A stretch of 64,000 bases of DNA, from the NCBI GenBank assembly GCA_950097015.1, contig CATNEN010000038.1, forward strand, positions 3,782,001 through 3,846,000, given 5' to 3'. Positions 3,101-62,502 of this stretch are shown piece by piece; position 1 is the stretch's first letter; every line of letters begins with the position of its first letter. The notes beneath the pieces are model-generated. The model did no database searches and was not told where the DNA came from. It was given only the letters and a program-made list of their open reading frames with translations. A program made the position numbers and the translations under genes. This DNA comes from Macrostomum hystrix (Eukaryota > Animalia > Platyhelminthes).

Positions 3101-4313
3101 TTGCTCCGTTTTCTTTCATGTCTAGATCATAATTACAATACTCTTACAATATGTTATTTGAGATAGAGGTTGTAGCCTAGTGGTTAGAGCGTCGGACTCA
3201 CGACTTGAAGGTCGGGGGTTCGATTCCCAACTCCACTAGAACAATTTGTGTCCTTTAGCAAGACACTTAACTCTGCACTGCTTCAGTTCACCCAGCTGTT
3301 AAATGGGTACCAGCATCAGCTGGGATAATTGAAGGTGGGTGTGGCGTCCCCCCAGTCCATGGACTGAACTGCCGTACGCAGCCTTCAGATGCGCCGCGCA
3401 ATAGCTGCGGCTGTGCTGTTGGCTGCACATCTGGCCTAATTGGGGCAGGTGTAATCAATTATTATAATTATTTGAGATATTTTGTGTTTGGAAATCGTTG
3501 CAATGCAAACCAACAACTACAAGTACTACTAACTACAACTTACACAGGAATATCCACAGGTTCCTCCCATACAACCATTCTAAGTCGAGCTTTCCTTCTT
3601 CTAGTCTTGTCTTTCTGATTTTAGGAGTAAATAATATAGTACAACTTGTAATAATTGCAGGAGGGATGCGGGCAATGGCACATCACTTGGTGACACTTGA
3701 CCATTTCGCTGACTCCTGAGCACACACGGACACAGGAACCATTAGCAGGCACACGCTCACACAGTTGTGTACATCTGCCCTGACTTTTTCATCGTCAGCC
3801 AGTGTACACTGTCACTGTGCTTTGGAGGTTGGCCCTCAAGGGCGTAAATTGCACGACAAACCCCAAAGCCTTCTCTCCGCTCAGAGCTTAGGGACCTTGG
3901 TGCAAGAGGCAGACGCGTATACCGCTGTGCCACTCACCTTCCTGATTTTACGAGGAATAACTGCTTCGAAATAATTCTCGTCGGATAAAATGGTCATCCT
4001 GGATGCTAGGCATTCTTTATGGGGAAGCATCTCAAAATTTCTCAAACTACAACACTGTCAGACTGTTCTTAGGGGGTATTCCAATACGAGTACAAACCCA
4101 GCTATTTACTCAACCTTCTGTCTCGCTGCTCAGGCTCTCGGAGGCGAGTTGGGCGGACCCAAGGCTGTCAAATGGGCCTGCGGCATCAGCATGATCACCC
4201 TGTGGATTCTCTACGTCATCCTGGCTTCGCTGAAGGCCTACAACATCTTGAACTTCAACGTCAACCTGCCGGCAGCTACCGGCATCTGTAGCACCGCTAA
4301 GTCGAGCTCTTGA
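123..4313 (+). CDS. SLC8A: Sodium/calcium exchanger (NCX/SLC8 family), 3' part; 5' end lies outside the window
   Basis: Phase-consistent GT-AG exons 123-213, 656-746, 825-947, 1318-1393, 1949-2102, 2708-2880, 4134-4313. Protein includes a Calx-beta-like end ([14 protein letters not shown]), QFIQAMSIDAG...[18 protein letters not shown], the alpha-2 repeat [10 protein letters not shown]...[21 protein letters not shown] and GGELGGPK. Confidence 0.95.
214..632 (+). repeat. 8-bp intronic tandem repeat (G/A/T)TGAGTTC
   Basis: Array fills an NCX intron and starts at the donor GTGAGTTC. Confidence 0.95.
1037..1261. mobile_element. MITE-like non-autonomous DNA transposon relic
   Basis: Imperfect TIRs ACCACGGGGGTATTTCAAAT (1037-1056) and ATTTGAACTGCCCCATGGT (1243-1261). 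A diverged copy of the interior (TTGCCACCAGACA, TGAATATCTCGACGAT, TTCTGGATTTT) lies at ~25860-26085. Confidence 0.6.
1482..1792. mobile_element. hAT/Charlie-like non-autonomous element carrying a GAGATGAGACAGGG minisatellite
   Basis: Left end (TAGGTTCGGCAACCTT) and right end (GGGCCGCATCTGGCCCGCGAGCCAGAGGTTTG) resemble typical hAT-Charlie termini. Internal repeat at 1600-1700. Confidence 0.45.
2150..2482 (+). mobile_element. tRNA-derived SINE family A, 5'-truncated copy
   Basis: Shares GAGCTCGATTCCACGGC, GGCTTGTCGTGCAATTTACGCCCT, AAAGTCAGGGCAGATGTA and CAGCCCTCCTGCAATTA tail with about 10 other copies in the window. Confidence 0.85.
2490..2640. repeat. Dispersed degenerate GGGCGCACTT/AAAGTA repeat (also ~4480-4570 and 5180-5330)
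   Basis: Recurring G(C/T)GCACT(A/T)AAGTA units at three loci. Confidence 0.6.
3166..3467 (+). mobile_element. Full-length tRNA-derived CORE-type SINE (family B) with 12-bp TSD
   Basis: A box TAGCCTAGTGG, B box GGTTCGATTCC, CORE-like GTGTCCTTTAGCAAGACACTTAACTC...CAGCTGTTAAATGGGTACC, AT-rich tail. TSD TTATTTGAGATA at 3154-3165 and 3468-3479. Confidence 0.9.
3646..3940 (-). mobile_element. SINE family A copy (internally deleted)
   Basis: Reverse-complement match to the family A head, body and tail. Confidence 0.85.
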
Positions 4314-5849
4314 CTCATCAGACTATTGTGTGAAACGGTCTTTAAAACTGTGATTGGTCACTTGTTGGTTTGAATTGTGGTCAGTTCTAGAAAACCCCTT
4401 GGGAATTGAAAGGACAGGCCTCTACACCACCCATAGACGAAATGACCAAACTAGCCAACGATGAGCACACCAAAGTATTCAGTAAAATATGGGTGCGCTA
4501 AAAAACACATGCACGAAAGTACCGGCGCACTAAAGTATGGGCGCACTTAAGGACGGGCGCACTAACGGCCCAATGCATACACATGACTAATCGCAGCAAA
4601 TAATTTTTTAAAGACCGCATTGCGTAAGAACGCTTTAGTTTCCTCCACTTCCTTGTTAGAAAACTCTTGTTTATGATTTAGAAATACCACAGTGTCGACT
4701 GCTCTCTTTTCCCTTTTACTTTTTTTCATAATGTGTACGTTTTATAGAATTGGTAAAACCAACAGTCGATGAAAAAATTATCAAAAGAAAGATGCATAGG
4801 AACTTGAATTTCTTTTTTAGTAGCTTCCGTTTAAATCTGCAGAGAATATTTTTAATAACTAGGATTGTAAAAGACATCAACTTGTTGGTGCGCCAGCAAG
4901 TCCCAAACGAGTCGACGTGCGCATATTGACTGCCTTTTTGGAACATACTTTCCGGTTTTAATTCAGCCTTTTCTTATTTAGCGACTGTAGTTCGCTCATA
5001 TGCATTCCGCACATTTATTCTCTGTTACGCGTCATTTTGTTTTAATTCGAGCGTATATTGCCATCTGGTGATTCAATGCTTCGTACAGATTTTTCCCTTA
5101 TTTGCTAAGCGCGCCTAAATTTTGTATCTGATGTAAGCATATAGTGAATCACAGTGACCTAGATTAGCGCATTGGAGTGCGGGAGCACTTAAGTGTAGGC
5201 GCACTTTACGTGCCGGCGTACTTTGAGTACGGGCGCACTTTAGGTGCGAGCAAACTCTGAGTACGGGCGCACTTTAGGTTTGGGCGCACTTTGAGTACGC
5301 GCGTACTTTAGGAGTGGGCGCACTTGAGTGCCACATGCAAATAAATGCCTTAATGCCTTGCCCCTGACCTCAGTAATAACTCTGCCTGTTTGTATAATTC
5401 AATGCTGCGATTCGTAGCACTTGCACCTTTAGATATTCTCGTAGTCAATTTTCTGCTTGCAAATCGGTTGTGAACTTGAACACTTTGTTTATCCTTGATG
5501 CTGATTTGAAGCTCGCTTTTAAATCCTCTGAGCTTATTTTTGAGACCTTTTAATATTAATCGAATGCGCAGAAAACCTTTGACGCAATTTTTGGGTAGCA
5601 CCGTCTTAGATAAGCACCTTACTCATTAGCACTCCACTAACACGACTGGCGCCCTGTGTTTTCTGTTTATGCGTTTCTATGACACTGTAATCAAGAAAAT
5701 CTCTGTTTCTATTACAATATTTTGTTTCGAATTACAACGCATCTGAATCTTTTAATTTGTCTTCTAAAGTCTTAATATTTGTTTATTTTTTGGCATTCAC
5801 TTAAAGCCTTGGTTTGGGTTTCCATAATACAGAGCTGGGGCCCTCAGAC

Positions 5850-7605: not shown

Positions 7606-10600
7606 TTAGTCGTCCTCGAAATCGTCCTGGTACTGGCGACTTCTCGACTTCTTAGAGCTCAGCGGGCGCCCTGACCGTTCACAGGGGTGATCAATTATCG
7701 ATTAAAGCCAAGTAGCAACTTTTTCAATACATCGACGATTAGACTCACAACATGATCAGTGACCAACAGCTGCCCTGTCACACCGCTGCCATCATGACCC
7801 ACCACTTCATCATGACCCACCACTTCATCATGACCCACCACTTCATCATGACCCACCACTGCTATGATGACCCACCACTGCTATCATGACCCACCACTTC
7901 ATCATGACCCACCACTGCTATGATGACCCACCACTGCTATCATGACCCACCACTGCCATCATGACCCACCACTTCTATCATGACCCACCACTGCCATCAT
8001 GACCCACCACTGCCATCATGACCCACCACTGCCATCATGACCCACCACTTCTATCATGACCCACCACTGCCATCACGACCAATCACTGCTATCATCACCC
8101 ACCACTTCTATCATGACCCACCACTGCCATCATGACCCACCACTGCCATCATGACCCGTCACTGCTATCATGACCCACCACTTCTATCATCACCCACCAC
8201 TTCAATCATGACCCACCACTGCTATCATGACCCACCACTGCTATCTTGACCCACTGATAATTTGCCCAAAGACTCAATTGACTGAAGTGACTCAAGTGAC
8301 TCACCTCCGTTTTCCCTGAGCCTGTCTCCGTCGCCGAACTCATCTTCCTCGTTGAAGTCGTCTCGCCGGCCGGAGCTCTTTAGCTTCTGCTTGCGGCGCG
8401 ACCCGTGACTCCGACTGCCGCCTTCCAGGCTTTCGGCAGCCGCTGCAGCAACTCCTTCGGTGATGTCCCGCGACACCTGGCGGGTGAGCTTCCTGCCAAC
8501 ACCGGCCATGGCGCCGGCGCGGTCCACCATGTCCTGCATCTCCGACTTAGGGATGTTGGTCAGGCGGGCCAAGTCCCCAAACAGGCGCTTGCGCTGCTCC
8601 TGGGTTGCGAAAGGCATGGGGATTAAATATATTTAATCACAATCCCTCCTTAAAATTCCTGTCCCTCCCTAAAATCCCAGTCCCTCTCTAACATCCGGAT
8701 CCCTTTCTAAAATCCCAGTCCCTCTCTAAAATCCCAGTCCCTCCCTAAAATCTCAGTTCCTCTCTAAAATCCCAGTCCCTCTCTATAATCCCAGTCCCTT
8801 TCTAAAATCCCAGTCCCTCTCTAAAATCCCAGTCCCTTTCTAAAATCCCAGTCCCTCTCTAAAATCCCAGTCCCTCTCTAAAATCCCAGTCCCTTTCTAA
8901 AATCCCAGCCTCTCTTTTAAAATCCCAGTCCCTCTCTAAAATCCCAGCCTCTCTTTTAAAATCCCAGTCCCTCTCTAAAATCCCAGTCCCTTTCTAAAAT
9001 CCCAGTCCCTCTCTAAAATCCCAGTCCCTCTCTAAAACCCCAGCCTCTCTTTTTAAATCCCAGTCCCTCTCTAAAACCCCAGTTCCTCTCTAAAATCCCA
9101 GTCCCTCTCTAAAATCCCAGTCCCTCTCTAAAATCCCAGTCCCTCTCTAAAATCCCAGTCCCTCTCTAAAATCCCAGTCCCTCTCTAAAATCCCAGTCCC
9201 TCTCTAAAATCCCAGTCCCTCTCTAAAACCCCAGCCTCTCTTTTTAAATCCCAGTCCCTCTCTAAAACCCCAGTTCCTCTCTAAAATCCCAGTCCCTCTC
9301 TGAAATCCCAGTCCCTCTCTAAAATCCCAGTCCCTCTCTAAAATCCCAGTCCCTATCTAAAATCCCGGTCCCTCTCTAAAATGCTAAACCCCTCTCTAAC
9401 AGGGGGTGAGTGGCAGAGCGGTCAAACGCTTTTGTCTCCTCACACCAAGGTCCCTGAGCTCGATTCAGCGGCAAGGCAAAATTTTTTTGGGGAGCAGCCG
9501 CGGAGAGATGGCTTGGATAATCCTCCAATTGACGCCCTAGAGGGCCAACCTCCAGGGCACAGTGAAACTGTACGCTAGCCCCGATGATAAGGAAGTCAGG
9601 GCAGGTGTGACCACCTGTGTGAGTGTGCGCCCAGTAGTCAGCGGAATGGCCTCCTTTAAAACTGACAGGTGATTCGAAAGCGGCGCACTCTCACCTCCAG
9701 CGACTTCTGCAGGTCGGCCTCCATCTCCCTGTCCAGATGCTCCTGCTGGCGCTTCATCTCTAGGCGCATCTCCTCCTCCATAGACATCATCGAGTTGCGG
9801 AACTTGGCGTCCAGGGACAGCTCCAGCACGTAGCGTGCGATTTGACTGAAAAAAGCAGTAAATTCATGGATTTCTGTCGATGGGAAGTCAGGAAGCACTT
9901 TGAAGAGCAAATCACAGCGGAGATCGATGTTTAGCATTAAAGCAATTAACAAAGATATTGACAGCGAGAGATGAAGATCTGTAAAATTAAAGTTTAGAAT
10001 ATCTGAATCCCTTAGAAAACTCAACCCCGCTCCAAACCCACCCAACCCACTCCAAACCTCTCAACCCCACTCCAAACCTCTCAATCCCACTCCAAACCTC
10101 TCAACCCCACTCCAAACCTCTCAATCCCACTCCAAACCCCTCAACCCCACTCCAAACCCCTCAACATCACTCCAAAACCCTCAACATTACTCCAAACCCC
10201 TCAACCCCACTCCAAACCCCTCAACCCCACTCCAAACCCCTCAACCCCACTCCAAAACCCTCAACATTACTCCAAACCCCTCAACCCATTCCAAACCCCT
10301 CAACCCCACTCTAAACCCCTCAACCCCACTCCAAACCCCTCAACCCCACTCTAAACCCCTCAACGCCACTCCAAACCCCTCAAAATCACTCCAAACCCCT
10401 CAACATTACTCTAAACCCCTCAACCCATTCCAAACCCCTCAACCCCACTCCAAACCCCTCAACATTACTCTAAACCCCTCAACCCATTCCAAACCCCTCA
10501 ACCCCACTCTAAACCCCTCAACCCCACTCTAAACCCCTCAACCCCACTCCAAACCCCTCAACATTACTCTAAACCCCTCAACCCATTCCAAACCCCTCAA

Positions 10601-20240: not shown

Positions 20241-20480
20241 GGAGAGAAGGCTTGGGGGCTTGTCGTGCAATTTACGCCCTTAAGGGCCAACCTCCAGGGC
20301 ACAGTGAGACTGTACACTGCCTGACAATGAGAATGTCAGGGCAGATGTACACACCTGTAAGAGTGTGTGCTCAGGAGTCAGCGAAATGTGCAGAATTGCC
20401 TCACCGCTGGCTGCAGACTGCTGTCACCAAATGATGTACGATTGCCTGCAGCACTCCTGCAATTATCATTATTATCATAA
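20241..20480 (+). mobile_element. SINE family A copy (5'-truncated)
   Basis: Family body plus CTCCTGCAATTATCATTATT tail. Confidence 0.85.
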
Positions 20481-21714
20481 TTACGCCAAGTCCAGGTTGC
20501 AATTTGTAAGTCTTCGTGTGCTCTTTATCCGCACTTACCAAAAGGTCTGAAGTAATAATCCCTGCCCAAATGAAAACAGTGTGTGCCCCTAAGCAACACA
20601 CTTACTTGACTGGCCTCGTTTTATGTGTGAACAAGGCTTTAAAGTCGATACTGCCCATGCCAGTTACTATCCATGTCGTTGCGAACAATGAATGCAGGAA
20701 TTCAGGAGGGCAATGTCTGTTTTTCCAGCCCCAGTATGCCCGGATCATAGCTCCCTGGCTTGCGCCATCAAAGTAATTAATTATCTTTTACATCTACCTA
20801 AGGGTTGTTGCTTTGCGCACTGGCATCCACCATGATGATATTTTAAGCTGATTTGAATAAGTATTGATTTGTTCAAATTCATTAATAGCATCAGAGCTGC
20901 AGGTAACAATCATGCACCCTCTTAATTATGATAGTATCTGTTTTTTTCAGACACAAATTTGGCATTGGCCTTGCAGCACAGTTAACAGTCGATGGTAAGC
21001 CAATCAGGGATCGGAGTATTGCGGAGTGAGTATAGTCATTTTGTGTTTTAGTTCAACAGTTTTTAATTTATTTGTTCAGTGTGGCAAATCAAATTGTGAA
21101 TAAAAAATTTTCCCCCTGTCCTGTAGGCGCAACGCTAGATTTTTTTGCAAAATTGCACAGGTAACACCTTAAGCCTCGTTGGCCAATCAGCGTTAAGTAG
21201 ACTATGGGGTGTATTTCGGATTCCCCACAAGTTTGTCTAAAAATAGTAAAAATTAATAATCTACGTTGGCCAAAACTGATTGAGTGACACGTCTCTTTTC
21301 TAGATTCGCGTGTATTAACAGCACCCTCCACAATGTCACGTGACTCGATTCCCCAATGATATTTCAATGTTTAAGATTTTCAACTTTTTGTTGCATGGAA
21401 AGTTTAACCGTTTATTTAAGTTTAAAACTGCTGGATAATGATCAATAAATATTCTCAAAAGAAATTTTACGTCATGAATATGCACTCATGCATAATAATA
21501 TACAAGTACGATATGCGGTGTGAGAGTAAAAATAAATATTTTAAAAGATTAAACTATTCAAAAGAGGCAATTAACCATCAATCATTACCAAAATAAAAGG
21601 ATTAAAAAGTGTAAAAAGTGTTTCGCATCGTTTCAGAACTAAAGCAATACTTTTAATTCAAATAAAAACAGTTAAAAAAAATTTGGCGCCAAAGGCATGT
21701 CATTCCGAATGCAT

Positions 21715-21933
21715 TCCGATCCCTGATCTACGATCCCTGCTCTCCGATCCTGAACTCCGATCCCTGATCTCCGATCCCTGATCTCCGATCCCTGATCTCC
21801 GATCCCTGATCTCCGATCCCTGATCTCCGATCCCTGATCCCCGATCCCTGATCTCCGATCCCTGATCTCCGATCCCTGATCTCCGATCCCTGATCTCCGA
21901 TCCCTGATCTCCGATCCCTGATCTCCGATCCCT
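21715..21933. repeat. 14-bp minisatellite (TCCGATCCCTGATC)n at the transposase 3' end
   Basis: About 15 units; overlaps the stop codon. Confidence 0.95.
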
Positions 21934-23393
21934 AATACTTGGTCTTTCCTCCATTGCTGTCCACAACAGCCTGGCATCGCCGCGTCATACTCGACACGAG
22001 TTTCGCCGCCGCTTTCTCTTCGCCCATCAGTCGCCATTCTTCGCTGATGAGTCGCTTGAGGTTCTCTTTGTCGCCGCCGCCACCGAGTAGCTGGCCGCAC
22101 CGATTCCTCACCCGCCGCTTCAGCATGGCCCAGGCGTTCTCAATCGGATTCAAATCCGGCGATCTTGGCGGCCAATCGTCGACGCTCTGTAGGCGAAGTC
22201 GCTGCTTCACCTCCGTCACCTTGGCGGCCCGATGATGCGGTGCGTTGTCATCCATCAGCAGCCAGTCCGGTGGTAGATGGCTTCGGCCGTAGGGGGCGAC
22301 TGAGGTCTCCAGCAAATTTGAGTAGGAGTCCGCCGTGAGTTTGTCAGGAAAAATCACGTCAGTCTGACCGGCCGAGTGGATGCCCGCCCACACCCAGACT
22401 GGAGGAAACTGCAGCCAATGCCGCTGCTGCTGCTGCTGCTGCTTCTGCTGTTGCTGATCTTCCGCTGTCTGCGAAATTCGACTCTGCCGCCGCATTCTCG
22501 GCTGCTGCTGAAGCCATTGACGACCTCTGCCAGTGAAATCGGACAGCTGGAAGCAGGTCTCGTCTGTGAACAGAACTCTGCGAATCGAAATCATGCGATG
22601 GGTGTAGAAACGTTTGGATAATGCGTCATGTGATGCAGTGGGTCATGCGTCATGTGATGCAGTGGGTCGGAGATCAGGGATCGGAGATCAGGGATCGGAG
22701 ATCAGGGATCGGAGATCAGGGATCGGAGATCAGGGATCGGAGATCAGGGATCGGAGATCAGGGATCGGAGATCAGGGATCGGAGATCAGGGATCGGAGAT
22801 CAGGGATCGGAGATCAGGGATCGGAGATCAGGGATCGGAGATCAGGGATCGGAGATCAGGGATCGGAGATCAGGGATCGGAGATCAGGGATCGGAGATGG
22901 GTACTGGGTAATGTGTCATAAGACGCAGAGGGTCATGTACAAACTGATAGCCGTCTCACCTTGCCCAGTCGTGATGGCTCCATTCGAGTCTTTTCATGGC
23001 CCACCTCAGCCTAGCCGGAGCTCCCTTTGTCGCCGCTGCCGCAGCGGTCGCCTGTCCGGCCCTGGACCTGTAGCGAAATCTGGCTGACATGAGTCGCCGC
23101 CTCACTGTAGACCTGGAAGCCCGCACAGACCAGATTCTGGCCAGAGCCTGGCAGGACAGCAGCGGGTTTCTCTTAGCCAGTTGGCAAAGCTCCGTGTCCT
23201 CCTGAGGCCCGCTGAGGCGGCTGAGGCGGCGCGGCTGGTTCCTGACGGTGCCTAAGCGGCCCTGCTTGGTCACATTGTAGTGCGCGGCGCCCACAGAGAC
23301 ATCGAGTTGGCGGGCGATTTGGCGGTAGCTGGCACCGGCCAATCGCATGCCTACCAGTTGGTGGCGCTTGGCCTCTGTGAGCTGCTGCGGCAT
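21932..23393 (-). CDS. Tc1/mariner-superfamily transposase (DD35E spacing), two exons, 359 aa, possibly domesticated
   Basis: Exons 23393-22960 and 22577-21932 (1080 nt). HTH GASYRQIARQLDVS, second HTH SRSTVRRRL; the splice joins WSHHDWAR|VLFTDE; VWVWAGIH; DDNAPHH; WPPRSPDLNPIENAW; C-terminal GGKTKY. 35 residues between the second D and the E. Confidence 0.9.
22667..22898. repeat. 14-bp minisatellite (TCGGAGATCAGGGA)n in the transposase intron, inverted relative to 21715-21933
   Basis: About 16 perfect units. Confidence 0.95.
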
Positions 23394-23823
23394 CTGCACT
23401 GCCTACTTGAGACTGTCATGCAGATTAAGACACAGTGGCACACTCATATGGTCTATATATTTAACTTTTAATTTTTCACAGCTATCCGCAAAACAGTTTG
23501 TTGGGCCGATTCCTCCGCTTGGCCATGGTCACGTGATGCAGCTGGGCTGTACCAGCTGGAGTGGGGGGTGGTGTCGCTGCTATTTTATAATTCAGTCGGC
23601 TGCTCCGTAAATCGGAGTGGATTTTAGTTTGGGCGATATGATTTTAAGCTTTATTGTGAATTGGTAGCATGCTGTCACAATTGCCCGTTCTCCCCACCGT
23701 TTCTTCTTTTACTGCAGAACTGCTTGTGAAGGCAAAAAACTGTTTTACTTAACACCCGTCTCAGTCTGGAGAAGCTAAAAGAAGAGAACTTTAAAAGAAC
23801 TGGCCGACACAGCCGGGCAAGCG

Positions 23824-34099: not shown

Positions 34100-34300
34100 C
34101 TAGCGACTCCGCCTGAACAATAATCTGTCCTTTAGCAAGACACTCAACTCTGCATCGCTTCAGTCCACCCAGCTGTTAAATGAGTACCAGCATCAGCTGG
34201 GGTAATTGAGGTTGGGCGTCCCCATCCAGTCCATGGACTGAACAGCCGTACGCAGCCTTTAGATGCACCGCGCAATAGCTGCAGGTGTGATCAATTGTTA
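34100..34300 (+). mobile_element. CORE-type SINE family B, 5'-truncated, in the GT31 3' region
   Basis: TGTCCTTTAGCAAGACACTCAACTC...CAGCTGTTAAATGAGTACC. Confidence 0.85.
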
Positions 34301-42952: not shown

Positions 42953-43815
42953 GAACTGTGACCGCCGAGCAAACTGGCCTGTTCCTTGTCATCCACCAGC
43001 TATAATAATCCTCTATCAAGGACCTCAAAATATTTTGTAAGGATGTTGCACTATTGATCTTTGAAGGCCTATTTCGCATAAAATTATACGACCGTACTAC
43101 GAGCTCGTATTACATTGAGTAGATGGTTAATATAATTTTTCTTAACAATTTTAACAAAGCTTAAACAAATTGACCCAATAACAAACAGGTAATGCAATTT
43201 TCTTGACTGCCGTGAGCTACATTCGCAACTTTTTTCAAGTTACACCGTGCAGAATTCACTAAATGTATGCATCATCTTCCATATCCGGTTTGCCTACCAG
43301 TTAATTTAGCGGCTAAATAATCATTTTGCTTCGTCTGGTCTATCCTATACTTCATCATTTATTCTCTTCTCACGTTTGCTCGATGTAGCAACTGCTGGGC
43401 CAAAAAAAATTGAGTTCCTCACACCTGCCACCCTCATTGTCAGGCGGCCGTTAGAGACAGGCCGAGTCTTGTTTTATCACTCAATCACTCTCTCATTATC
43501 ATTCTCTCACCATCACATTCTGTTACCCCATCGCTCTATCGCTCTCTCACTCTCTTACCTTCTCACTTTCTCACTCTCTCACTCTCACTCTCTCACTCTT
43601 ACTCTCTCACTCTCCCTCTCTGACTCTCTCACTCTCTCTCCCTCTCTCCCTCTCTCTCAGGCCAGCACCGGCGTCTCGTACGACCGAGTCAGTGCCACGG
43701 AGTTGAGTGAGTATGGATTGAGTTGCGGGGCGCTGCCGAATCGATTGCGATATGTTGAGACTGAAAGCAGGATTTGAACAAGCGCCTATAGCCTAATGGC
43801 TAGAGCGCTAGGCTA

Positions 43816-43860
43816 GACTCTACTGATGAGCTCCAATAAGAGCGAAACGCGTCTGGAGTT
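43816..43860 (+). ncRNA. Minimal type I hammerhead ribozyme (Penelope-type)
   Basis: Stem I GACTCTA/TGGAGTT, core CTGATGA (43823-43829), stem II GCTC-CAATAA-GAGC, GAAA (43844-43847), palindromic mini stem III ACGCGT, cleavage triplet GTC ending at 43853. Confidence 0.85.
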
Positions 43861-43944
43861 GCCTTTGTTCGAATCCTGATTTCAATTTTTTCTATACATA
43901 TCGGAATCGATTCCAACATTAGATTTTTGAAATTCAATGGGCAG

Positions 43945-44140
43945 TGTCCTCTCTCCTCTCTCCCGCTCTCTCTCTCCCTCTCTCACACTCACTCTCACAC
44001 TCACTCTCTCACTCTCTCACTCTCTCACTCTCACACTCACTCTCTCACTCATTCTCTCACTCACCCTCTCACTCATTCTCTCACTCTCACACTCACTCTC
44101 TCACTCTCTCACTATCTTATTCTCACTCTCTCTTCCCTAA
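43945..44140. repeat. CT/CA-rich low-complexity repeat (also 43480-43658)
   Basis: (CTCTCA)n-type arrays. Confidence 0.9.
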
Positions 44141-44804: not shown

Positions 44805-46462
44805 ATGCCCGAAGACCTTGTTGTGACAACACCAAGCCTAGATTCAGAGGCAGGTAAGATAATATTTGCAAAGTTTATGAGTTCACTTTAGTAGTGTGTG
44901 AGTTAGTGTGCTCAACTATCATAGTTGCAGTTTTATTTAATTTCTCTCCTAGTATCGAGCACAGCTCAGCGCCTTCTGCTCCGGCTGCTGCTGCTGCTGC
45001 TGCTTCGACCACGGCTGGAGCTCGTCCAGGCGCAGCCTGGCTGTCGGGCTTCGCTTCGCTTCGCTGATGTCGGCCAGCGAGGCTTCGTCAAGCTCGACTA
45101 CAGCGTCCGCAGCCAGCTGATTGACCAAGGCTGGACGGCCGGTGCCACTGCCTGCGTCCTGATGTGCCGACTGCGCGGCGACGACTGCGTTGCGGCTGCC
45201 AGGAGCCGCGACGCCAGCGGACGCTGCGTCCTGCTGCTGGTCCTTGATGCTGCCAGCGACGCTGTTGGAGCTGCAGCGGCCTACGAAGGCGCGCTGCTGG
45301 GTGCTAACGATGAGACGAATGTCTGGGTGTCTGAAGAAATGGACATAGTGATACGAAAGAGGAGGATGGAAATTGTAGCGGTTTTCGCGAGTAAGTGAAC
45401 TTTATGACTATGACTAATCAGAAATCTCAACCAATCAGAAATCTCAGCCAGTTAGAATTCCACCCAATCAAACTAGTTAGCAAGCGAGAAGTCCAAGCCA
45501 ATCAGAAGCTCGCAATCTTGCAGACTCAAGCTCGGGCGCGGTGGGGTCGCCTCAGACAGTTCAAGTGAATATTACCGGCTGCTACCTGCTCACAGCTTCC
45601 GGAGCACGCGGCGGCGCCAGCAACAAATCCGCTGACGGGCAGTGGCTTGGCGGTCGCGGCGTCAATGTCAGCGGCATCTTCCGGCTGTCGGCCGGGAGCC
45701 GCCTGACGATCATTGTCGGCCAGCGCGGAGCTGACGCTGAGCAAGCGTCGATCTTTGCGAGCGGAGGCGGCGGTGGTGGAAGCTTCGTCTTCACCTCAGC
45801 GGCCGACAACGACAGCTCGTCCACCGCTCCACAGCTGCTTTTGGCGGCTGGAGGCGGCGGCGGCGGCGCTCGGTACAACGCAGGTAACAAAACTGAGCAA
45901 GTAGTTCAAGAAAACCGTCGAAATCGGATCGATAATCGAAAACTTCTTCGACTACAACGCTGCAGGTCGAGACGGTCAGGCGGGCAACGAGGGCAGCGAC
46001 CCAGCAGTCCCTGCGTCAAACCCGACGTCATACAGCCAAGGTGGCTCCGACGGTTTCGGAGGCCTGACAAACAACACCGGCTTGGGGCAGATCAACGCCG
46101 GTGGTCCTGGCGCAGGCTGGCTGGGCGGAGGCCGCTTCACGAAGGCGCCTCCACGCTCCACCGATGGCGGCGCTGGCGCCAGTCTCTCCGACGGCTGGGT
46201 TGGAGGCCGCGGAGGAGGCCTGAACTTTGGCGCCGTCGGCGGCTTCGGCGGCGGCGGCGGCGCTGGGCAGAACGCGGGAGCGGGCGGTGGCGGCGGCGGC
46301 TTCAGCGGCGGCGGCGCTGGTGCGGGCTCTCACCATGCCGGAGGCGGCGGTGGCTCATTCTGCAGCGGCACCAGCTGCACCTTCTCGATTGTCAGAAGCG
46401 GCGGCGATGGACAGGGGCTCGTACAGCTGCGGCTGTTGCGAGTGCCAGTGGAGAGTTGCTGA
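44805..46462 (+). CDS. Secreted protein: PAN/apple-like Cys module + ALK/LTK-type glycine-rich domain, 447 aa, no TM or kinase domain
   Basis: Exons 44805-44853, 44953-45390, 45524-45883, 45966-46462 (1344 nt). Leu-rich leader ending ELVQA; ACVLMC...DCVAA...GRCVL; RKRR; then TGCYLLTASGARGG, GGRG, LTIIVGQRG, GGGGGGSFVF, LLLAAGGGGG, GAGW, GGFGGGGG, GGGGGFSGG, GGGGGSFC and GLVQL. Confidence 0.85.
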
Positions 46463-47004
46463 CGCTAAAACTAAGATTTCGTTTTTTTCATCAAGGAGCG
46501 AAGTGTTTCTGGCTGAGATAAGAAGCCAGTAAGTCTATATTCTAATCTTAAATCCCAACTCGGAGGATTGCAAGAATCCCAAACTGGGAAGAAAAACTCG
46601 CAGAAAGACTGAAACCCGAATGTTGAACTTTTGGTGGGATTAATAGGCCAACTGGAAGGTCTGGAAGCTCGTAATACATGATATACTACTAGTGTACATG
46701 ATAATAGCAATTTAGGTGACAAAAATTTGCTGGCTTTAATAAAAAATTTGACAAATTGGAGAATCCTGCGTGCTGCCATGGTGAGGAGGGCTACATTAGC
46801 TAGTCTCAATTACTATAGATATTGAAAAAATTCAAGGGCATAAGGGCGCTTAAAAAGATTCTTTGTAGAAAAAATGTTCTAATTTTAATAAATGTTTTTT
46901 TCCAGAGCGTTGAATGTAACTTTTCCTTATTGCTGCGCCATTTTATCAATTGCAAATTAAATTAAAATCAGACAAACCAATTATTAAACATAAAGTCTAT
47001 ATGT

Positions 47005-47346
47005 TAATGGCACTGGGTTGTGGGCAATGGCGCATCATTTGGTGACACTAGACCGGCAGCCTTCGAGGGGGCAATTCTGTCCGTTTCTCTGACTCCTGAG
47101 CACCCTCAGATACCGTATGTAGGCATGCGCTCACACAGGCGTGTACATCTGCCCAACTTTATCGTCAGGCAGTGTACAATTTCACTGTGCCTTGGAGGTT
47201 AGGCCTCAATGGCGTCAATTGCACGACAAGTCCACAAGCCTTCTCTCCGTGGCTGCGCTCCAAATTAATGTGGCCTCGCCGCGGAATCGAGCACAGGGGC
47301 CTTGGTGCGAGAGGCAAACGCGCTAGACCGCTCTGCTACTCACCCG
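47005..47346 (-). mobile_element. SINE family A copy, near full-length
   Basis: Reverse-complement match to head and body. Confidence 0.85.
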
Positions 47347-54600: not shown

Positions 54601-57600
54601 CCTTGTCTAAAATATCTCCCCAGTGGCATCTCTCTCCTGTCTCATATCTCTCCTGTCTCATCTCTCTAACGTCTCATATCTCTTCTGTCTCATCTCTCTA
54701 CCGTCTAATCTCTCTCCTGTCTCCTCTATCTACTGTCTCATCTCTCCCCTGTCTCCTCTCTCCCCTGTCTCATCTCTCTCCTATCTCCTCTCTCTCCTGT
54801 CTCCTCTCTCCCCTGTCTCATCTCTCTCGTGTCTCATCTTTCTCCTGTCTTATCTCTCCCATGTCTCATCTCTCCCCTGTCTCATCTCTCCTGTCTCATC
54901 TCTCCCCTGTCTCCTCTCCCCTGTCTCATCAATCTCCTGTCACATTTATCTCCTGTCTCATATCTTTCCTGCCTCCTCTCTCCCCTGTCTCATCTCTCTC
55001 CTATCTCCTCTCTCTCCTGTCTCATCTCTCCCCTGTCTCATCTCTCTCCTGTCTCCTCTCTCCCCTGTCTCATCTCTCTCGTGTCTCATCTTTCTCCTGT
55101 CTTATCTCTCCCATGTCTCATCTCTCCCCTGTCTCATCTCTCCTGTCTCATCTCTCCCCTGTCTCCTCTCCCCTGTCTCATCTCTCCTGTCTCATCTCTC
55201 CCCTGTCTCCTCTCCCCTGTCTCATCAATCTCCTGTCACATTTATCTCCTGTCTCAAATCTTTCCTGCCTCCTCTCTCCCCTGTCTCATCTCTCTCCTAT
55301 CTCCTCTCTCTCCTGTCTCATCTCTCTCCTGTCTCCTCTCTCCCCTGTCTCATCTCTCTCGTGTCTCATCTTTCTCCTGTCTTATCTCTCCCATGTCTCA
55401 TCTCTCCCCTGTCTCATCTCTCCTGTCTCATCTCTCCCCTGTCTCCTCTCCCCTGTCTCATCAATCTCCTGTCACATTTATCTCCTGTCTCATATCTTTC
55501 CTGCCTCATCTCTCCCCTGTCTCATCTCCCCCTTGTCTCATCTCTCGCCTGTCTCATATCTCCCCTGTCTTATCTCTCTCCCGTCTGATCTCCCTCTCGA
55601 TCTCTTTCCCGTTTCATCTCTCTCCTGTCTCATCTCTCTGCTGTCTAATCTTATTTGCTGTCATGCTTGGTTTCGTCAAATCTCTTTGGCCCTTGATAGT
55701 AATAGAAGGTTGCCTTGCGCCGATCCGGTCTAGAGCTTGTGTTGCAAGCCTGTAAGCAAGTGGAGCATGCCGCATTCTCTTCAGCTACTAAGCCTGTTTA
55801 AACTTCTACCGCCAATGACTGCTCAGTTTTCATTTGCCCTAGTGGCCGAGTCGAGTTGCCAGCGTGGCTTGATGAGTCACATGACTCACTGCCGTGTTGG
55901 GTGAGAATGAGTAGGTGCAGGCAGACAGACACCCAGACGGGACTGTCACTACAGGCTTCCACTTAGTAACTGGTGAGACAGAGAGAGCTCTTAAATCATA
56001 CGAGTCTAACGAGTTTTAAGTTTAAGCTTCACATTTGTTAGGTATAATTTATCATTCCACACACTGACGGACTAGTACTGGACACAGTTTATTGATAGAG
56101 AATATATTCAGCTGTCGCCATTATTCTCATCTATATAATCCTAAAATGCCAATCCAGAACTTTCCCAAACGCAGATCGAACAATTTCCGAATCCAAATAT
56201 CAGGGGGTCGGTGGCAGAGTGGTTAACGCGTTTGCCTCTCGCACCAAGGTCCCTGAGCTCGATTCCACGGGCGAGGCCACATTTATTTAGAGGCGCAGCC
56301 GCGGAGTGAAAGCTTGGGGGCTTGTCGTGCAATTTACGCCCTTGAGGGCCAACCTCCAATGAGTAAGTCAGGGCAGGTGTACACAGTATAGGGTGCGTAC
56401 GTACTTAGGATTCAGCGAAATGGGCTGATAAAGCTGCGGGTCTAGCGTCACCAAATGATGTGCCATTGCCCGCAACCCTCCAGTAATAATTACTATTATT
56501 AATATATCCAAATATAAAGTTATACACACAAAATATTTTAATCCCAAAAGAAACTAAAAACCCGATTCTTATCTCAATGCCAACCATTTTCGAATTTGAA
56601 ATCAAACATTCTCAAATCCTGATACGGACACAATAATCCAAATCCTAATATCAGGCGTGTTTCAAATCTCAATCCCAACCCTTTCCAAATCCCAAAAAAA
56701 GGATTCCCAAAAGCACAACACAATCATTAGCTACTAGCCAATGAACGCAACTCAGTATTCTGATTACAACCATCAAGCAGACCTTATCGGGTGTGCAGCC
56801 GCGGAACTCCGGGGACATCTCTGAGTCGGTGAAGCTGCCGCTATCGTTCTTGAACTTGGTGAACTCGGCCAGGTGCGGCTGCTGATGATGCTGAGGATGC
56901 AGCGGCTGATGAGGCTGGCTGGAATGCTGGGCGAGCTGCTGCTCATCGCTTATTGAAATTCGTCTGTGCTGCGGAGAGCCGGACGATGCTGCGATGGAGA
57001 ATGGTGACGGGATGAATAATGGCGACCCTCTGCACGAATTCTGACACATCGAAATCAACAAACTGCGAAGCTTTAAAAACCGCTACTTTAATGACACATT
57101 TCTAAATTGCAGTTTTCCTGTATTCAAATCTTATCACTACTCAGTATTGCTAGAAAAAAAACAATGGAATACTAACTCCCACGCAGCAAATGCCAATTAA
57201 CGTTAGTTAGCTAGCTAATAGATTAAGCTTTGTAGATCCCAGATCCCCATTCGAACTGTTGAGATCCCAAATCGTAGATCGAAGCTGCTAAGATCCCAAA
57301 TCCCAATTTGAACCTGTTCTGATCCCAAATCCCGGGCAATTCGAAGCATTTCAATCGTAAATTCACTAAAAACCTTTCCAGACAAAAGATCCCAACTCTG
57401 AATCCCCATTTGAGGCTGTGCTGATCCCAAATCCCAAATCCCAAATCGAACCTGTTCAAATTCTAAATCTCAGTTCATATCGCAAATAGAAGTTTTTTCA
57501 GATCCAAAATCCCAACTCGAAGCTGTTCAGATCCCAATTTAGAATCCTAAAATTATTAGCTACAAGCGTGAGCCATGACTAATACAGAAGATCTCGCAGC

Positions 57601-60600
57601 TCGATGGATGGGATGGGAGCAATCTGCCCAGGGTGCAATAGATTTGCACTTAGTTCGACCTCGATCTGCCCGCCGCCCGCAGACTGACTAGCCGCTAGTT
57701 TGGTTAGTGTGTCTAGAGAGGAAAAACTGAAAAATGTGCGGAAGCTAGCGGCTTTGGGACTGGGGTTGATCGGGATTACTAGATGCGGCCCGGAGGCTGG
57801 GTAAGGGATGGGGAAGATTCATGGGCAAGAGGGATTAGTTTTCGATGAAGTGTGCACTGTCGGTCAGTAAGAACGGTGGGGAGAGCTTTAAACTACATAC
57901 TAGAGACGTACCGAACTTATGTACACTGAGCTATGGCCCAAAATGAGCAGCTGCTGAGGATATTCGGCCACGGCTATGTAAGTGAAATTAGTCTATTCCC
58001 TTATTCAATAATTGTCCACTAACCTAGCTACGCCAGCAAGAATTGTACGATACATTGAGCATGGTGTGAAAACTATGAGAAATCTAAACAGGTATTTTGT
58101 TATTGACAGCATTGCGCCAGTGAACATTTCACCATTCAGCGCGTTATGCGATTACAATATTTAAATTTAGCTTAGCAACTAAATCGGACCTGTGACAACT
58201 CTTTACATTAGTACTGCGCTGCATTTTCACGATTTCAACGACAGGATTTAAATTTAGACATTTGTTGGTACTGAAATATAGCATATTACATTTACGTCAC
58301 GTTTTTACAAAGCAAGGGTTTCTAAGTAAGGTAAACGGCAGGAGTAACTATACTACTAGATACATATCTAAATACCTCGGCATCTAATTGCCCTCGTAGA
58401 TAATAACGTCTATTACTGGCGCTGTAAATTGGTGCACTTTTGCTCACGGGTGCTCACCTTCAAAAGCAGCCCGATTGCAGCGCACCAAATCAATGGACGC
58501 GCACGAAGAATTCAAAGTTGAACCGTTCGAAGATGGCAGACTGGACGCCCCGGAGTCAGACTCATCGTCCGGCAATTCGCAGTTGACGTGGCCATACAGT
58601 TTAAGACTGTCCGCCGGGTAGAAATAGTTGCCCTCGTCTCTGGACTCAGCCCTAGTGCTGGGCAGCTTGATGCGAGAACTGCGTCTAGAATTGTTAGCCG
58701 CGCTCATTCTTTTCAAATCGCAGCAATTGTAGGGATAGCGGTCCTGATAAGCGAATGGATCTGCTGCTCCGGCTGAGTCGGCAGCTGCATCGACTGCTGC
58801 TGCTGCGCCTTCGAAGCTGGTTGAAAATGTCGACGATTGCGACTGCGTCCGCGACTTGCCGCAGAATCTGCCGGTGCTACTTGGACGCGAGCCTTGCGCT
58901 AATTGTGAAAAACTGCGCCGCAAAGCAACACAGTCGGATTGTTCGGACTCTTCCTGTCTCTGCTCGGCCTGTTTAACCTTGGCGGACTTATTTGGCTGCG
59001 CTGCGGCGTGCAAATGAAAATCACTGCGACAGTTATCGCCAGTTGTTGATACGGAGCAGGAGACGCTAGCACTGGTGTTTAATAAGCCTGCGCTCCGCTT
59101 GTAATTGTAGCACGAGGTGGCACCGCTAGTGGGACACTTTTTCCGTACAGACGGCTGGTGAAGTGATATGAACAAAAATGGGTTGGAATTGGAAAGGTGG
59201 CTTTGAAAACTGCGTGCGGGAAAGAGGTTGAGGACTGGTAAGGGACACCCCCGCACCCTGTTCAAAGTCTGAGCGCGGATTCGCCCGGGCCGGTCGATAT
59301 CACACCCGCACCCCGAGAATGTACATATATCTTTCCGGGGTCTGCCGGGGCTTGAGTGTTCACCCTCTTTGTTCTTCTCTCTCTCCCCTCAGCTGATGAT
59401 TTTACCCACCCTCGTATGCTAGCGAAGCTAGTTTAGACCCGGCCCTAACCGAGGCAGAAAGAGCGAGTGAGTCATCTGGGAAATCTCGTACGAGCGTTAC
59501 GAGCGTTGGTTGGGGTCCGATTTCTTCTCTTGCCTACCCTTCCTACATTCTCATAACCCCCTGCATAGATTAAAGTTTAAATCCACTTTATTAATTTTGA
59601 CCTATCAGTGGCTGTTATATAATATGGGTTTTATAGTGTAATTCATCTACAAGTATTGCTTGTACTTATACGCATTTCTTTGCTCTGAAAGTTTCTAGAC
59701 TATTGATCAAAGTACGAGTACAAGATGCATTCCACCACAGAATCTGGGCATTCCACTGCTTCAAATGCATAGCTTCGGCAACATGCTTAGTCGCGACAAA
59801 AGGCCACATTTATTTGAAATTTACGAAATTATTCGTAATTTGCAATCTTCCTCTGCTAATATATCCTGCTGAGAAATAGCAACGTTTATAGGTGTCTTTA
59901 TTGGCACCACCTCTGATCTGATACAATTTCAGTGACTTAAGGGCCGCTGCCCGCTACCTCTTGACTTGTCTTACTTGACTTAGCTGCAGGGTGGTACGAA
60001 CAGTCAGCAGGGAAAGTTACCTCTGGTCCTTCAGTGTAAATGACGAGTATGATAATTTAATAATAATAATAATTGCAGGAGGGCTGTGGGCAATGGCACA
60101 TCATTTTGGTGACACTAGACCCGCATCCAGCTAGCAGGCAACTCTGCCATTTCGCTGACTCCTGGGCGTAATTGCACGACGAGCCCCCAAGCCTTCTCTC
60201 CCCAAATAAAAGTGGCCTCGCCGCGGAATCGAGCTCAGAGACCTTGGTGCAACAGGCAAACGCGTTAGCCGCTCTGCCACCGAGCCCCTGAATTACGAGT
60301 ATGGTCGCTACCTAACTCTGGTCCTTCAGTGTGAACTGTGAACTTGGGGTTGCTACCTCTGGTCCTTCAGTGTGAACTGTGAATTTGGGGTTGCTACCTC
60401 TGGTCCTTTAGGGAATTAGTGTCGCTACCTCTGGTCATTCAGGTAATTAGTGTCACTACCTCTGGTCCTTCAGGTAATTAGAGTCGCTACCTCTGGTCCT
60501 TCAGGGAATTAGTGTCGCTACCTCTGGTCTTTCACGGAATTAGTATCGCTACCTCTGGTCTTTCATGGAATTAGTGTCGCTACCTCTGGTCTTTCAGGGA

Positions 60601-60888: not shown

Positions 60889-62132
60889 GTCGTGGCAGTT
60901 TAAGCCGTCAGCTCGAAATAGATACTTGCTCTGCGCTTGCTTATAGACTTTGTTAGATTAATAAACAATGCATGGAATCGCAAGCGATCCTAAAAACCCT
61001 CTGACACTCTACTGTAGATTAGAGAAAAGATCTATTAGCCCCAGAATACGGTAAGTCGGAAAATTTTTTCGCACTGCAGAATTAAAGGAAGTGATTGCAG
61101 GACTGGCTGAAGCTTATAGCCCCTTTTATACACAGCTTATAGGCACTTTTATACACAATCAATGCGGACCGATACCTTGCGGGGGAGGTTCGACGCAACA
61201 ACTTCCCGACCTACCATCGCGACTTTGCACGGCACTGCTGCTGCTGCTGCTGCTACCGCGAGGTTGCACATTCTAAAACGCAATCCCAAAACGTATGACC
61301 TCGCATCAGCCAATTGCTAAGCAACTCCTGTATTTGGGACCAAGCTGTTTAGCCTTAACTTTCCAATGTAACGCACTGTGCCGATCCAGCTAGTTGAATT
61401 CCTGGCTGTGCAGCATTCGTTGTGATTGGATCCTTGAAGGTCTCGCGTTTGCGTACCTCTTCGAATCGGGTACGGAAATTGTATAATATAGTTATAGTAG
61501 GTTGCAGAGGGTGACGTGGCCTCTTCCATCCGCCCCCCTCCAGGGGAGGATTTTAGCTAGCCCCATTGCCTCCTATTTCCATTGCCATCTACTGCTGCTG
61601 CATTATTAACTTCGCTGCCTTGGATCGCAATTACACAATGGAGGCAACTGTTTAGCAATGGGCGGAAAGTTAGGCCTACCAATGCCGGTACGTGTACGTG
61701 AGCCCACGATCCGTCGCCTGGGCATTCATTTTGACATAAAAATGCACAACAAAAACTACGGAAATGCTAAATCTTCGATACTCCATAGTATAATAAGAAA
61801 AGGATATTCCATGTTCATTTACAAACGCCGGTACGCACTGTGTCTCCATTTAACCTGCCGCCTGTAGTCGCTAAAGGAACTGCGGCAGAGGGCGATTTGT
61901 CGGACTGAAAATGGTCAATAAATTAAGTCTATAGTACCATTTCCTGCAGCGACCCTACCTAACTATTTCATATACAGAGTTGCAAACTCTAGGACATTTC
62001 TAGGAAATGTGCGATTTTTCACAGTCAAATCAGTTGTGTCAGAGCGAGCTAAACAATTAGAAATTAAAAGTGCCAACAAGGTCTAATTCTAATCACAAAA
62101 CTTAGCAGGTGTAACCTTTGACTACTAAATAC

Positions 62133-62502
62133 AATAATAATAATATAATTAATAATTGCAGGAGGGCTGCGGGCAATGGCACATCATTTTGGTGACACTA
62201 GACCCGCAGCCAGCAGCGAGGAGGCAATTCTGCCCATTTCGCTGACTCTCAAGCACACGCACACAGATACTGTATGCAGTCAAACGCTCAGGTATGTACA
62301 TCTGCCCTGACTTTCTCATCGTCAGGCAGTTTACACTTCACTGTGCCTAGGAGATTGGCCCTCAAGAACGTAAATTGCACGACAAGCCCCCAAGCCTTCT
62401 CTCCGCGGCTGCACCCCAAATAAATGTGGCCTTGCCGTGGAATCGAGCTTAGGGACCTTGGTGCGAGAAGCAAACGCGTTAACCGCTCTGCCACCGACCC
62501 CC
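62133..62502 (-). mobile_element. Full-length SINE family A copy
   Basis: Complete tRNA-like head, body, 3' stem-loops and (TTA)n tail. Confidence 0.92.

What the first reader, a model, noticed from the sequence alone, without database searches (positions are those of the whole stretch)
43781..43925. Hammerhead ribozyme sitting between Pol III A- and B-box-like motifs
Seen: a tRNA/SINE-like 5' half with A box TAGCCTAATGG (43789-43799) runs straight into a complete minimal hammerhead (43816-43860), followed by GTTCGAATCC (43867-43876) and a T6 run near 43886. Established: minimal type I hammerheads with a palindromic stem III typify Penelope-like elements and are thought to cleave as dimers; schistosome SM-alpha repeats combine Pol III boxes with a hammerhead. 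Inference: either a ~110-nt Pol III-transcribed self-cleaving RNA or retrozyme-like element, or a Penelope terminal fragment inserted in a family B SINE head (a second B-box-like GAATCGATTCC follows near 43904).
Basis: partly seen in the sequence, partly recalled or inferred. Interest (0 to 1): 0.8.

Follow-up and report, generated by a model that had tools for sequence, protein, structure and literature searches.

The report
Ribozyme nested inside a mobile promoter
This is one copy of a young, repeated 290-base element of a free-living flatworm relative that sits in CT-rich simple repeats and carries a predicted self-cutting hammerhead RNA placed between the two halves of a tRNA-type promoter; it is likely copied by a Penelope-type enzyme, a design known from blood flukes except for the ribozyme's position inside the promoter.

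Summary
The hammerhead, A box, B box and T6 run are all at the stated places (Rfam HH9 match, 37.7 bits, E 6e-6). The finding is only the middle of a larger unit, 43660-43948 plus a CT tail of about 38 bases. The unit recurs almost unchanged in other samples of the same organism, a Macrostomum relative, at very high contig depth. Copies share one 3' end and begin at several 5' points. The 5' arm (43727-43781) is an inverted copy of the 3' part, so the unit folds as a rod (z -8.9). The 'second B box' is a palindrome in that arm. It is not a one-off chimera, and the ribozyme is of the retrozyme type, not the Penelope minimal type. Best reading: a non-autonomous retrozyme-like retroelement, likely mobilised by a Penelope-type enzyme. 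The predicted 110-nt Pol III RNA is too short to be the mobile intermediate. The difference from schistosome Sm-alpha is that the cut site lies between box A and box B. Transcription, cleavage, tandem copies and the partner element are all unshown.

The parts
43660..43948 (+). Conserved repeat unit, 289 bp, 47.8% GC
   Evidence: One X3 contig spans 43652-43952 with 6 differences; one X5 contig spans 43663-43965 with 5; GC
43477..43631 (+). TCACTCTC-type microsatellite, likely the insertion target (left part)
43632..43659 (+). Nearly pure C/T tract at the 5' junction; element-borne or target, not resolved
   Evidence: 1 purine in 28; 5' loose end at 43656 is CT-only
43690..43726 (+). GA-rich stretch, possibly a decayed inverted copy of the 3' microsatellite
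   Evidence: 2 of 1000 shuffles and 5 of 516 neighbouring 37-mers score as well; weak
43727..43781 (+). Left arm: inverted copy of 43865-43949 lacking a 25-base hairpin
43789..43799 (+). Pol III A-box motif; implied tRNA position +1 is 43782, the first base after the inverted arm
   Evidence: promoter function untested
43810..43864 (+). Type I hammerhead: stem I 4 bp + UA bulge + 7 bp, stem II 4 bp, palindromic ACGCGU in place of stem III, predicted cut after C43853
   Evidence: Rfam HH9; pair probabilities; double-hammerhead energy
43867..43876 (+). Pol III B-box motif, 78 bases after the A box; other copies read G at 43866, giving GGTTCGAATCC
43886..43891 (+). T6 run, predicted Pol III terminator inside the unit (one T longer in a minority of X1 contigs; a T5 follows at 43924-43928)
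43865..43949 (+). Right arm, including the B box, the palindrome GGAATCGATTCC (43903-43914) and a small hairpin (about 43917-43939)
43947..43984 (+). CT tail of about 38 bases shared by other copies
   Evidence: Pieces that start in the unique part run on to 43964-43984 with 1-7 differences (records 6, 7, 8, 12, 16, 24)
43985..44132 (+). TCACTCTC-type microsatellite, likely the insertion target (right part)

Best explanation
The stretch is the core of a young, multi-copy, non-coding element that likely moves as RNA through a Penelope-type reverse transcriptase and endonuclease into CT-rich microsatellites. Shown: the unit's extent, its recurrence, one shared 3' end with a CT tail, several 5' starts, an inverted 5' arm, and an intact hammerhead motif between A- and B-box motifs. 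Inferred origin: a tRNA-derived head (+1 at 43782) took in a hammerhead where the anticodon arm would lie; a Penelope-style inverted copy of its 3' part was then added in front, and the composite amplified recently. Inferred working: unit-length RNA comes from read-through (a neighbouring tandem copy or a host transcript), because the internal promoter starts 120 bases too late and meets T6. Two ribozymes pair through ACGCGU and cut after C43853. Cut-to-cut monomers of about 326 nt would close into rod-shaped circles, and copying primed in the CT tract would give inserts with CT at both ends or 5'-truncated ones. Because the cut lies between box A and box B, a linear monomer carries them in the order B...A; only a circle or an uncut template would restore the promoter in the new copy. 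Each dispersed copy is predicted also to make a 105-110 nt Pol III RNA that cannot transpose but could supply the dimer partner.
For: Unit conserved whole in X3 and X5; the window copy differs from the majority at 5 places. X1's main 86-base contig has depth 2647 against 22-148 for most listed side contigs, which points to many copies. Internal 5' loose ends at 43739, 43850, 43923 (X1) and 43789 (X2), three of four preceded by CT-rich DNA; the 3' loose ends shown for X1 lie only at 43949-43950. Inverted arm ends at 43781, adjacent to the implied tRNA +1; inverted 5' copies, 30-40 bp tails and microsatellite targets are Penelope traits (PMC8557442, passages). The 3' end lies 93-96 bases after the cut site; in anole PAc reverse transcription starts 85-92 bases after it (computed from PMC11167929, main text). 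The + strand folds better than the - strand (-112.0 vs -87.8 kcal/mol) and arm differences are 5 G-U type to 0 A-C type, p 0.06. Active double hammerhead -38.1 kcal/mol, within 0.5 of the dimer minimum of -38.6 and below two monomers at -32.8. A modelled 326-nt circle keeps stems I and II (-121.7). An X2 variant turns a stem I G-U into G-C (43860). A window gene's best relative is Macrostomum lignano at 61%.
Against: No tandem copy was seen: the window holds one copy and no contig joins the 3' end to the 5' start (table 5 empty; joints only inside the CT repeat), though contigs break in CT repeats. No autonomous partner was found: no reverse-transcriptase or GIY-YIG domain in 111 window reading frames scanned, and no genome is held to search. 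In PAc the ribozyme is dispensable for insertion in vitro and uncut RNA is the main template (PMC11167929), and 8 of 9 Xenopus retrozyme dimers did not cleave in vitro (10.64898/2026.07.22.740005). The family is too young for box conservation to show selection. With the window's own letters the G-U bias falls to 3:1. CT on both sides is equally explained by the target alone. Four loose ends and 39 were not shown. Contig depth is not a copy number.
Confidence: 0.58

Rival explanations
1. End repeat (pLTR) stub of an autonomous Penelope-like element that has a tRNA-derived promoter built into its end; the short copies are truncated by-products.
For: Inverted 5' arm, 38-base tail, microsatellite target and 3'-end spacing all fit Penelope insertions (PMC8557442; PMC11167929). 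Unchecked notes on other genomes reach this reading. Contigs break in CT repeats, so a frame beyond the tract cannot be excluded.
Against: The frame from the ATG in the core stops after 17 codons, unlike PAc where the ORF begins there. All end junctions shown lead into CT repeat, one into a SINE. The ribozyme lacks the Penelope minimal-form traits of PMC4209133 (long helix II, extra base before it, short helix I).
Confidence: 0.17
2. A true Pol III SINE: a short form starting at 43782 is transcribed from boxes A and B, reads through the T runs and is copied uncut; the ribozyme is a passenger and the long form is a derivative.
For: An X2 copy begins at 43789, at the A box, behind CT repeat and carries its own variants, one of which lengthens the T-arm stem (43877). 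X1 summed depth is about 5,200-5,500 in the 3' half against 2,784 in the left arm, though overlaps inflate such sums.
Against: T6 and T5 lie inside the unit on the transcribed strand; runs of four or more T usually stop Pol III (own knowledge; not known for flatworms). The main X1 contig (depth 2647) crosses the arm/head junction, so the long form is itself abundant.
Confidence: 0.14
3. The element is a retrozyme as in the best explanation, but boxes A and B are silent relics of its origin and make no RNA.
For: Retrozymes are described as lacking promoters and relying on read-through (PMC7761336 section 9). A related core in organism B has no boxes beside it. No cloverleaf remains. This rival overlaps the best explanation and differs only on the promoter.
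Against: Both boxes fit consensus, spacing 78 is workable (own knowledge of intron-bearing tRNA genes), a T6 follows directly, and no difference is listed inside either box in any run laid.
Confidence: 0.3
4. A miniature inverted-repeat DNA transposon (MITE or fold-back) whose terminal repeats enclose the ribozyme.
For: Long inverted arms, 87-90% complementary in two blocks.
Against: The unit runs 67 bases past the left arm and has a tail past the right arm; truncation is one-sided; arms are far more diverged from each other than copies are from one another.
Confidence: 0.04
5. One-off chimera of a Penelope fragment and a local SINE head.
For: A box matches the SINE at 3173 at 17 of 19.
Against: The whole arrangement recurs in other samples at high depth.
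Confidence: 0.02

Closest known systems
Sm-alpha / Sj-alpha SINE-like hammerhead retroposons of Schistosoma (as described in PMC6765202, PMC2770079, PMC8490949; passages read; the 1998 original was not held)
   Same: Flatworm host, about 330-base unit, type I hammerhead, Pol III-type boxes, multi-copy, promoter left at the wrong end of a cut monomer.
   Different: There the promoter is followed by the ribozyme and the tRNA-Gln-like head is whole enough to be called a tRNA; here the ribozyme lies between the boxes, no cloverleaf remains, T6 follows the B box, and the unit has an inverted arm and a CT tail. Sequence kinship was not tested.
Metazoan non-LTR retrozymes (PMC7229834, Results read; bioRxiv 10.64898/2026.07.22.740005, parts 1-3 of 5 read)
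   Same: Canonical type I hammerhead with palindromic helix III like axolotl HHR_Amex1 and newt, unit of 150-450 bp, GC under 50%, rod-like fold, no coding frame, likely Penelope-dependent.
   Different: Only a monomer is seen here; retrozymes are said to lack promoters (PMC7761336); circular RNA not shown.
Endonuclease-positive Penelope-like elements, e.g. anole PAc (PMC11167929 main text; PMC8557442 passages; PMC4209133 Results and Discussion)
   Same: Inverted 5' copy, 30-40 base tail, microsatellite target, fixed 3' end about 90 bases past the cut site.
   Different: No reading frame; ribozyme is not the minimal Penelope form; target is CT-rich where TA, CA and C runs are reported.
Rfam Hammerhead_HH9 (RF02275)
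   Same: Core, stem II and UA bulge align almost letter for letter.
   Different: Score 37.7 is under the 52-bit threshold; stem III is reduced to a palindrome; this is a young repeat, not a single conserved locus.

Membership tests
Type I hammerhead ribozyme | Core CUGANGA, GAAA and UH triplet in order, closed by stem I | tested here: met
Type I hammerhead ribozyme | Self-cleavage | not testable with these tools
   Dimer energy is favourable but is a prediction
Rfam HH9 | Gathering score 52 bits | tested here: not met
   37.7 bits
Non-LTR retrozyme | Canonical type I hammerhead in a 150-450 bp, <50% GC, self-paired, non-coding unit | tested here: met
Non-LTR retrozyme | Tandem repeats | tested here: inconclusive
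   Monomer at this locus; no 3'-to-5' joint; contigs break in CT; an X2 upstream tract aligns to the tail at 44 of 48 but is low-complexity (record 9)
Non-LTR retrozyme | Expressed as linear and circular RNA | not testable with these tools
   Only contigs available
Sm-alpha / Sj-alpha | Pol III promoter followed by the ribozyme, tRNA-like head whole | tested here: not met
   Ribozyme splits the boxes; no cloverleaf
Sm-alpha / Sj-alpha | Sequence homology to the schistosome element | not tested
   No schistosome sequence was available from the tools
Penelope-like element end repeat | Adjoins or overlaps an RT/GIY-YIG frame | tested here: inconclusive
   Not within the unit or among 111 window frames; beyond the CT tracts in other copies unknown
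Penelope-like element end repeat | Minimal hammerhead (long helix II, extra base, short helix I) | tested here: not met
   Helix II 4 bp, no extra base, helix I 7+4 bp against PMC4209133
Penelope-like element end repeat | Inverted 5' copy, 30-40 bp tail, microsatellite target | tested here: met
tRNA-derived SINE | tRNA head at the element's 5' end | tested here: not met
   Head starts 122 bases inside the long form; one X2 copy does start at the A box
tRNA-derived SINE | No Pol III terminator inside the unit | tested here: not met
   T6 at 43886 and T5 at 43924
MITE | Inverted repeats at both termini, symmetric ends | tested here: not met
   Arms are internal on the 5' side; one-sided truncation

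The most novel reading that the evidence does not exclude
The element has a promoter that its own ribozyme cuts in two: only RNA that has been circularised rebuilds A-box/ribozyme/B-box in the new copy, and each new copy then makes a 110-nt Pol III RNA that cannot jump but pairs through ACGCGU with longer transcripts to switch on their cleavage in trans. That would be a natural self-made activator for a dimer-only ribozyme and a built-in genetic marker for circular intermediates in Penelope-driven retrotransposition.
Probability: 0.15. Interest if true: 0.78.

Novelty: new variant of a known kind. Interest (0 to 1): 0.48.

Why it matters
How non-LTR retrozymes are transcribed and whether circles are their real intermediates are open points (PMC7761336 section 9; 10.64898/2026.07.22.740005 Discussion). 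This family offers a small test case in a genus kept in laboratories: the promoter motifs flank the cut site, a terminator defines a short RNA that differs from the mobile unit, and Penelope-type insertion scars are built in. It also extends the promoter-plus-hammerhead design from parasitic to free-living flatworms. The parts are all known, and nothing functional is shown yet, which caps the interest.

Tried and rejected
No genome held for the window. Exact-pattern scans for relatives: metagenomes 0 hits with two patterns; viral contigs 7 loci and prokaryote genomes 18 loci, of which 0 of 25 have an A or B box beside the match; these are not animal retroelements and are a weak control. No RNA holder listed among 20 runs: no evidence on expression either way. 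X2, X3 and X5 are 42-46 Mb assemblies in which the element has depth 10-31 against thousands in X1, so they may not be whole-genome runs; their library type is not on record and I draw nothing from it. X17 (organism I) holds 43735-43891 nearly identical to the majority; close kin and cross-contamination cannot be told apart. ARAGORN at lowered thresholds gave only calls built from the inverted repeat, rejected. A loose hammerhead pattern over the window was at chance level (16 matches, 13.8 expected). First homolog search found nothing. Stem III probability 0 in monomer folds is forced by the program's minimum loop size and is not evidence. The 43850 junction lies 4 bases before the cut site in one contig with 6 gaps; not counted as a cleavage product. 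No exact target-site duplication could be read in the CT flanks. Literature: 10 searches found no paper describing a hammerhead between A and B boxes or a Macrostomum hammerhead element; the primary Sm-alpha and dimer papers (PMC108972, PMC5785218) were not held, Repbase and SINEBase could not be searched, and supplements of PMC7229834, PMC4209133 and the 2026 preprint were not read and may list such elements. Earlier-findings look-ups by sequence and place returned nothing.

Full report
OBSERVATION. Rfam HH9 matches 43805-43876 at 37.7 bits, E 6e-6 for the whole window, under its 52-bit threshold because stem III is missing. Stem I has 7 pairs, a UA bulge and 4 more pairs; stem II has 4 pairs and the loop CAAUAA; ACGCGU (43847-43852) is a perfect palindrome; the predicted cut follows C43853. 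By the definitions in PMC4209133 (Results read) this is the canonical metazoan type I form, not the Penelope minimal form. Both boxes together arose in 1 of 20,000 shuffles, and the A box region matches the head of a tRNA-derived SINE at 3173 at 17 of 19. No cloverleaf is left. The 'second B box' is a palindrome mirrored in an inverted repeat.

HOST AND PLACE. The window is eukaryotic and full of minisatellites. A galactosyltransferase exon's best relative is Macrostomum lignano at 61% identity (2 hits, both that species), so the host is likely another free-living flatworm of that group. The element probably lies between genes: a + strand frame ends at 41369 and a plausible gene start is at 44805 with a GT-AG intron at 44854-44952.

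THE REAL UNIT. No genome is held, so I laid contigs of 6 of the 20 listed runs. One X3 contig covers 43652-43952 with 6 differences and one X5 contig covers 43663-43965 with 5. The window copy differs from the majority at 43747, 43761, 43769, 43866 and 43893; the majority letter at 43866 gives the fuller B box GGTTCGAATCC. In X1 the main contig over 43721-43806 has depth 2647, while listed side contigs have 22-148 (one has 466). If side contigs are single loci this means tens to about a hundred copies, but the tool warns that depth is no copy number. Copies that begin inside the unit have loose 5' ends at 43739, 43850, 43923 (X1) and 43789 (X2); three are preceded by CT-rich DNA and one by a SINE B box. 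The 3' loose ends shown for X1 are only at 43949-43950 (8 of 12 loose ends shown). Pieces from the unique part run into the CT tract as far as 43964-43984 with few differences, so about 38 bases of tail belong to the element. Both outer flanks are the same TCACTCTC-type repeat. A fixed 3' end, scattered 5' starts and a microsatellite target are the pattern of target-primed reverse transcription (inference).

THE ARM. 43727-43781 aligns as an inverted copy of 43865-43949 that lacks a 25-base hairpin. The 231-nt region folds at -101.1 kcal/mol, z -8.9, 0 of 200 shuffles as good. The stretch before the arm weakly resembles an inverted microsatellite (2 of 1000 shuffles, 5 of 516 neighbours). The arm stops at 43781, and 43782 is tRNA position +1 as implied by the A box. 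This suggests an older short unit that began at the head and gained an inverted 5' copy, as Penelope insertions do (PMC8557442, passages). With majority letters the + strand folds 24 kcal/mol better than the - strand, and arm differences are 5 G-U type to 0 A-C type (p 0.06); with the window's letters 3 to 1.

MECHANISM. A Pol III RNA from these boxes would run from about 43782 to T6 at 43886-43891. It omits 120 bases of the unit's 5' part and the 3' end where copying starts, so it is not the intermediate. Unit-length RNA must start upstream, in a tandem neighbour or a host transcript. The ribozyme is predicted to work as a dimer: the active double form scores -38.1 kcal/mol against -38.6 for the dimer minimum and -32.8 for two monomers. 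A cut-to-cut circle of 326 nt keeps stems I and II. I commit to read-through, dimer cleavage, circularisation and Penelope-type copying primed in the CT tract (0.58). Against it: no tandem joint was seen, no partner frame was found among 111 of the window's frames scanned, PAc inserts without ribozyme cleavage (PMC11167929), and 8 of 9 Xenopus dimers did not cleave (10.64898/2026.07.22.740005).

OTHER SPECIES. Organism B has a core with 5 differences over 43818-43858 whose flanks, as far as the 30 letters shown, are complementary to each other and hold neither box; it also has a relative of the 3' end and tail. So the boxes are a trait of this family, not of all related ribozymes. Scans of metagenome, viral and prokaryote collections found no relative.

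COMPARISON AND NOVELTY. It works most like Sm-alpha and the non-LTR retrozymes. It fails the Sm-alpha layout (promoter followed by ribozyme, PMC6765202; tRNA-like head, PMC2770079) and is unproven as a retrozyme for want of tandems and circles. Unchecked notes from this scan describe tRNA-headed hammerhead or Penelope units in several other genomes, so promoter plus ribozyme is not rare; none of the listed summaries mentions a ribozyme between the boxes. Ten literature searches found no such layout, with the gaps named under Tried and rejected. Papers seen: passages of PMC8557442, PMC6765202, PMC2770079, PMC8490949, PMC10886601, PMC6155905; parts 2-3 of 6 of PMC7229834; Results and Discussion of PMC4209133; section 9 of PMC7761336; parts 1-3 of 4 of PMC11167929; parts 1-3 of 5 of the 2026 preprint; no supplements. 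Verdict: new variant of a known kind, interest 0.48.

Noticed in passing
window 3166-3415 (+), 28120-27921 (-), 34104-34289 (+, headless part): A tRNA-derived SINE family with intact A and B boxes 45 bases apart; copies 83-88% alike.
   Followed up: partly
window 2167-2492, 9397-9648, 20241-20483, 47015-47345, 56200-56505, 60052-60291, 62132-62502 and others: A second, more abundant repeat of about 330 bases with an A box and a degenerate B box (GAGCTCGATTC); copies 70-89% alike.
   Followed up: partly
window 43769 and 43866: Two of the five private letters of this copy turn mismatches in the same block of the inverted repeat into pairs, as template switching in a quasi-palindrome would; a third (43761) does the reverse.
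   Followed up: no
run X1, contig of 619 letters laid at 43850-43952: A 3' piece of the element sits directly behind the B box of the other tRNA SINE, a possible new SINE-head fusion.
   Followed up: no
run X6 (organism B), contig of 232 letters laid at 43818-43858: A related hammerhead core at the tip of a different long hairpin, likely another retrozyme or Penelope family.
   Followed up: partly
window 21935-22642 (-) and 22959-23402 (-): Tc1/mariner-like transposase pieces (DDE_3, HTH_Tnp_Tc3_2) separated and flanked by a 14-base minisatellite at 21715-21933 and 22667-22898.
   Followed up: no
window 44805-46521 (+): Predicted secreted protein with an ALK/LTK glycine-rich domain, about 860 bases downstream of the element.
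   Followed up: partly
L009, L016, L024: Hammerhead-like cores with good local folds in prokaryote records; not examined further.
   Followed up: no
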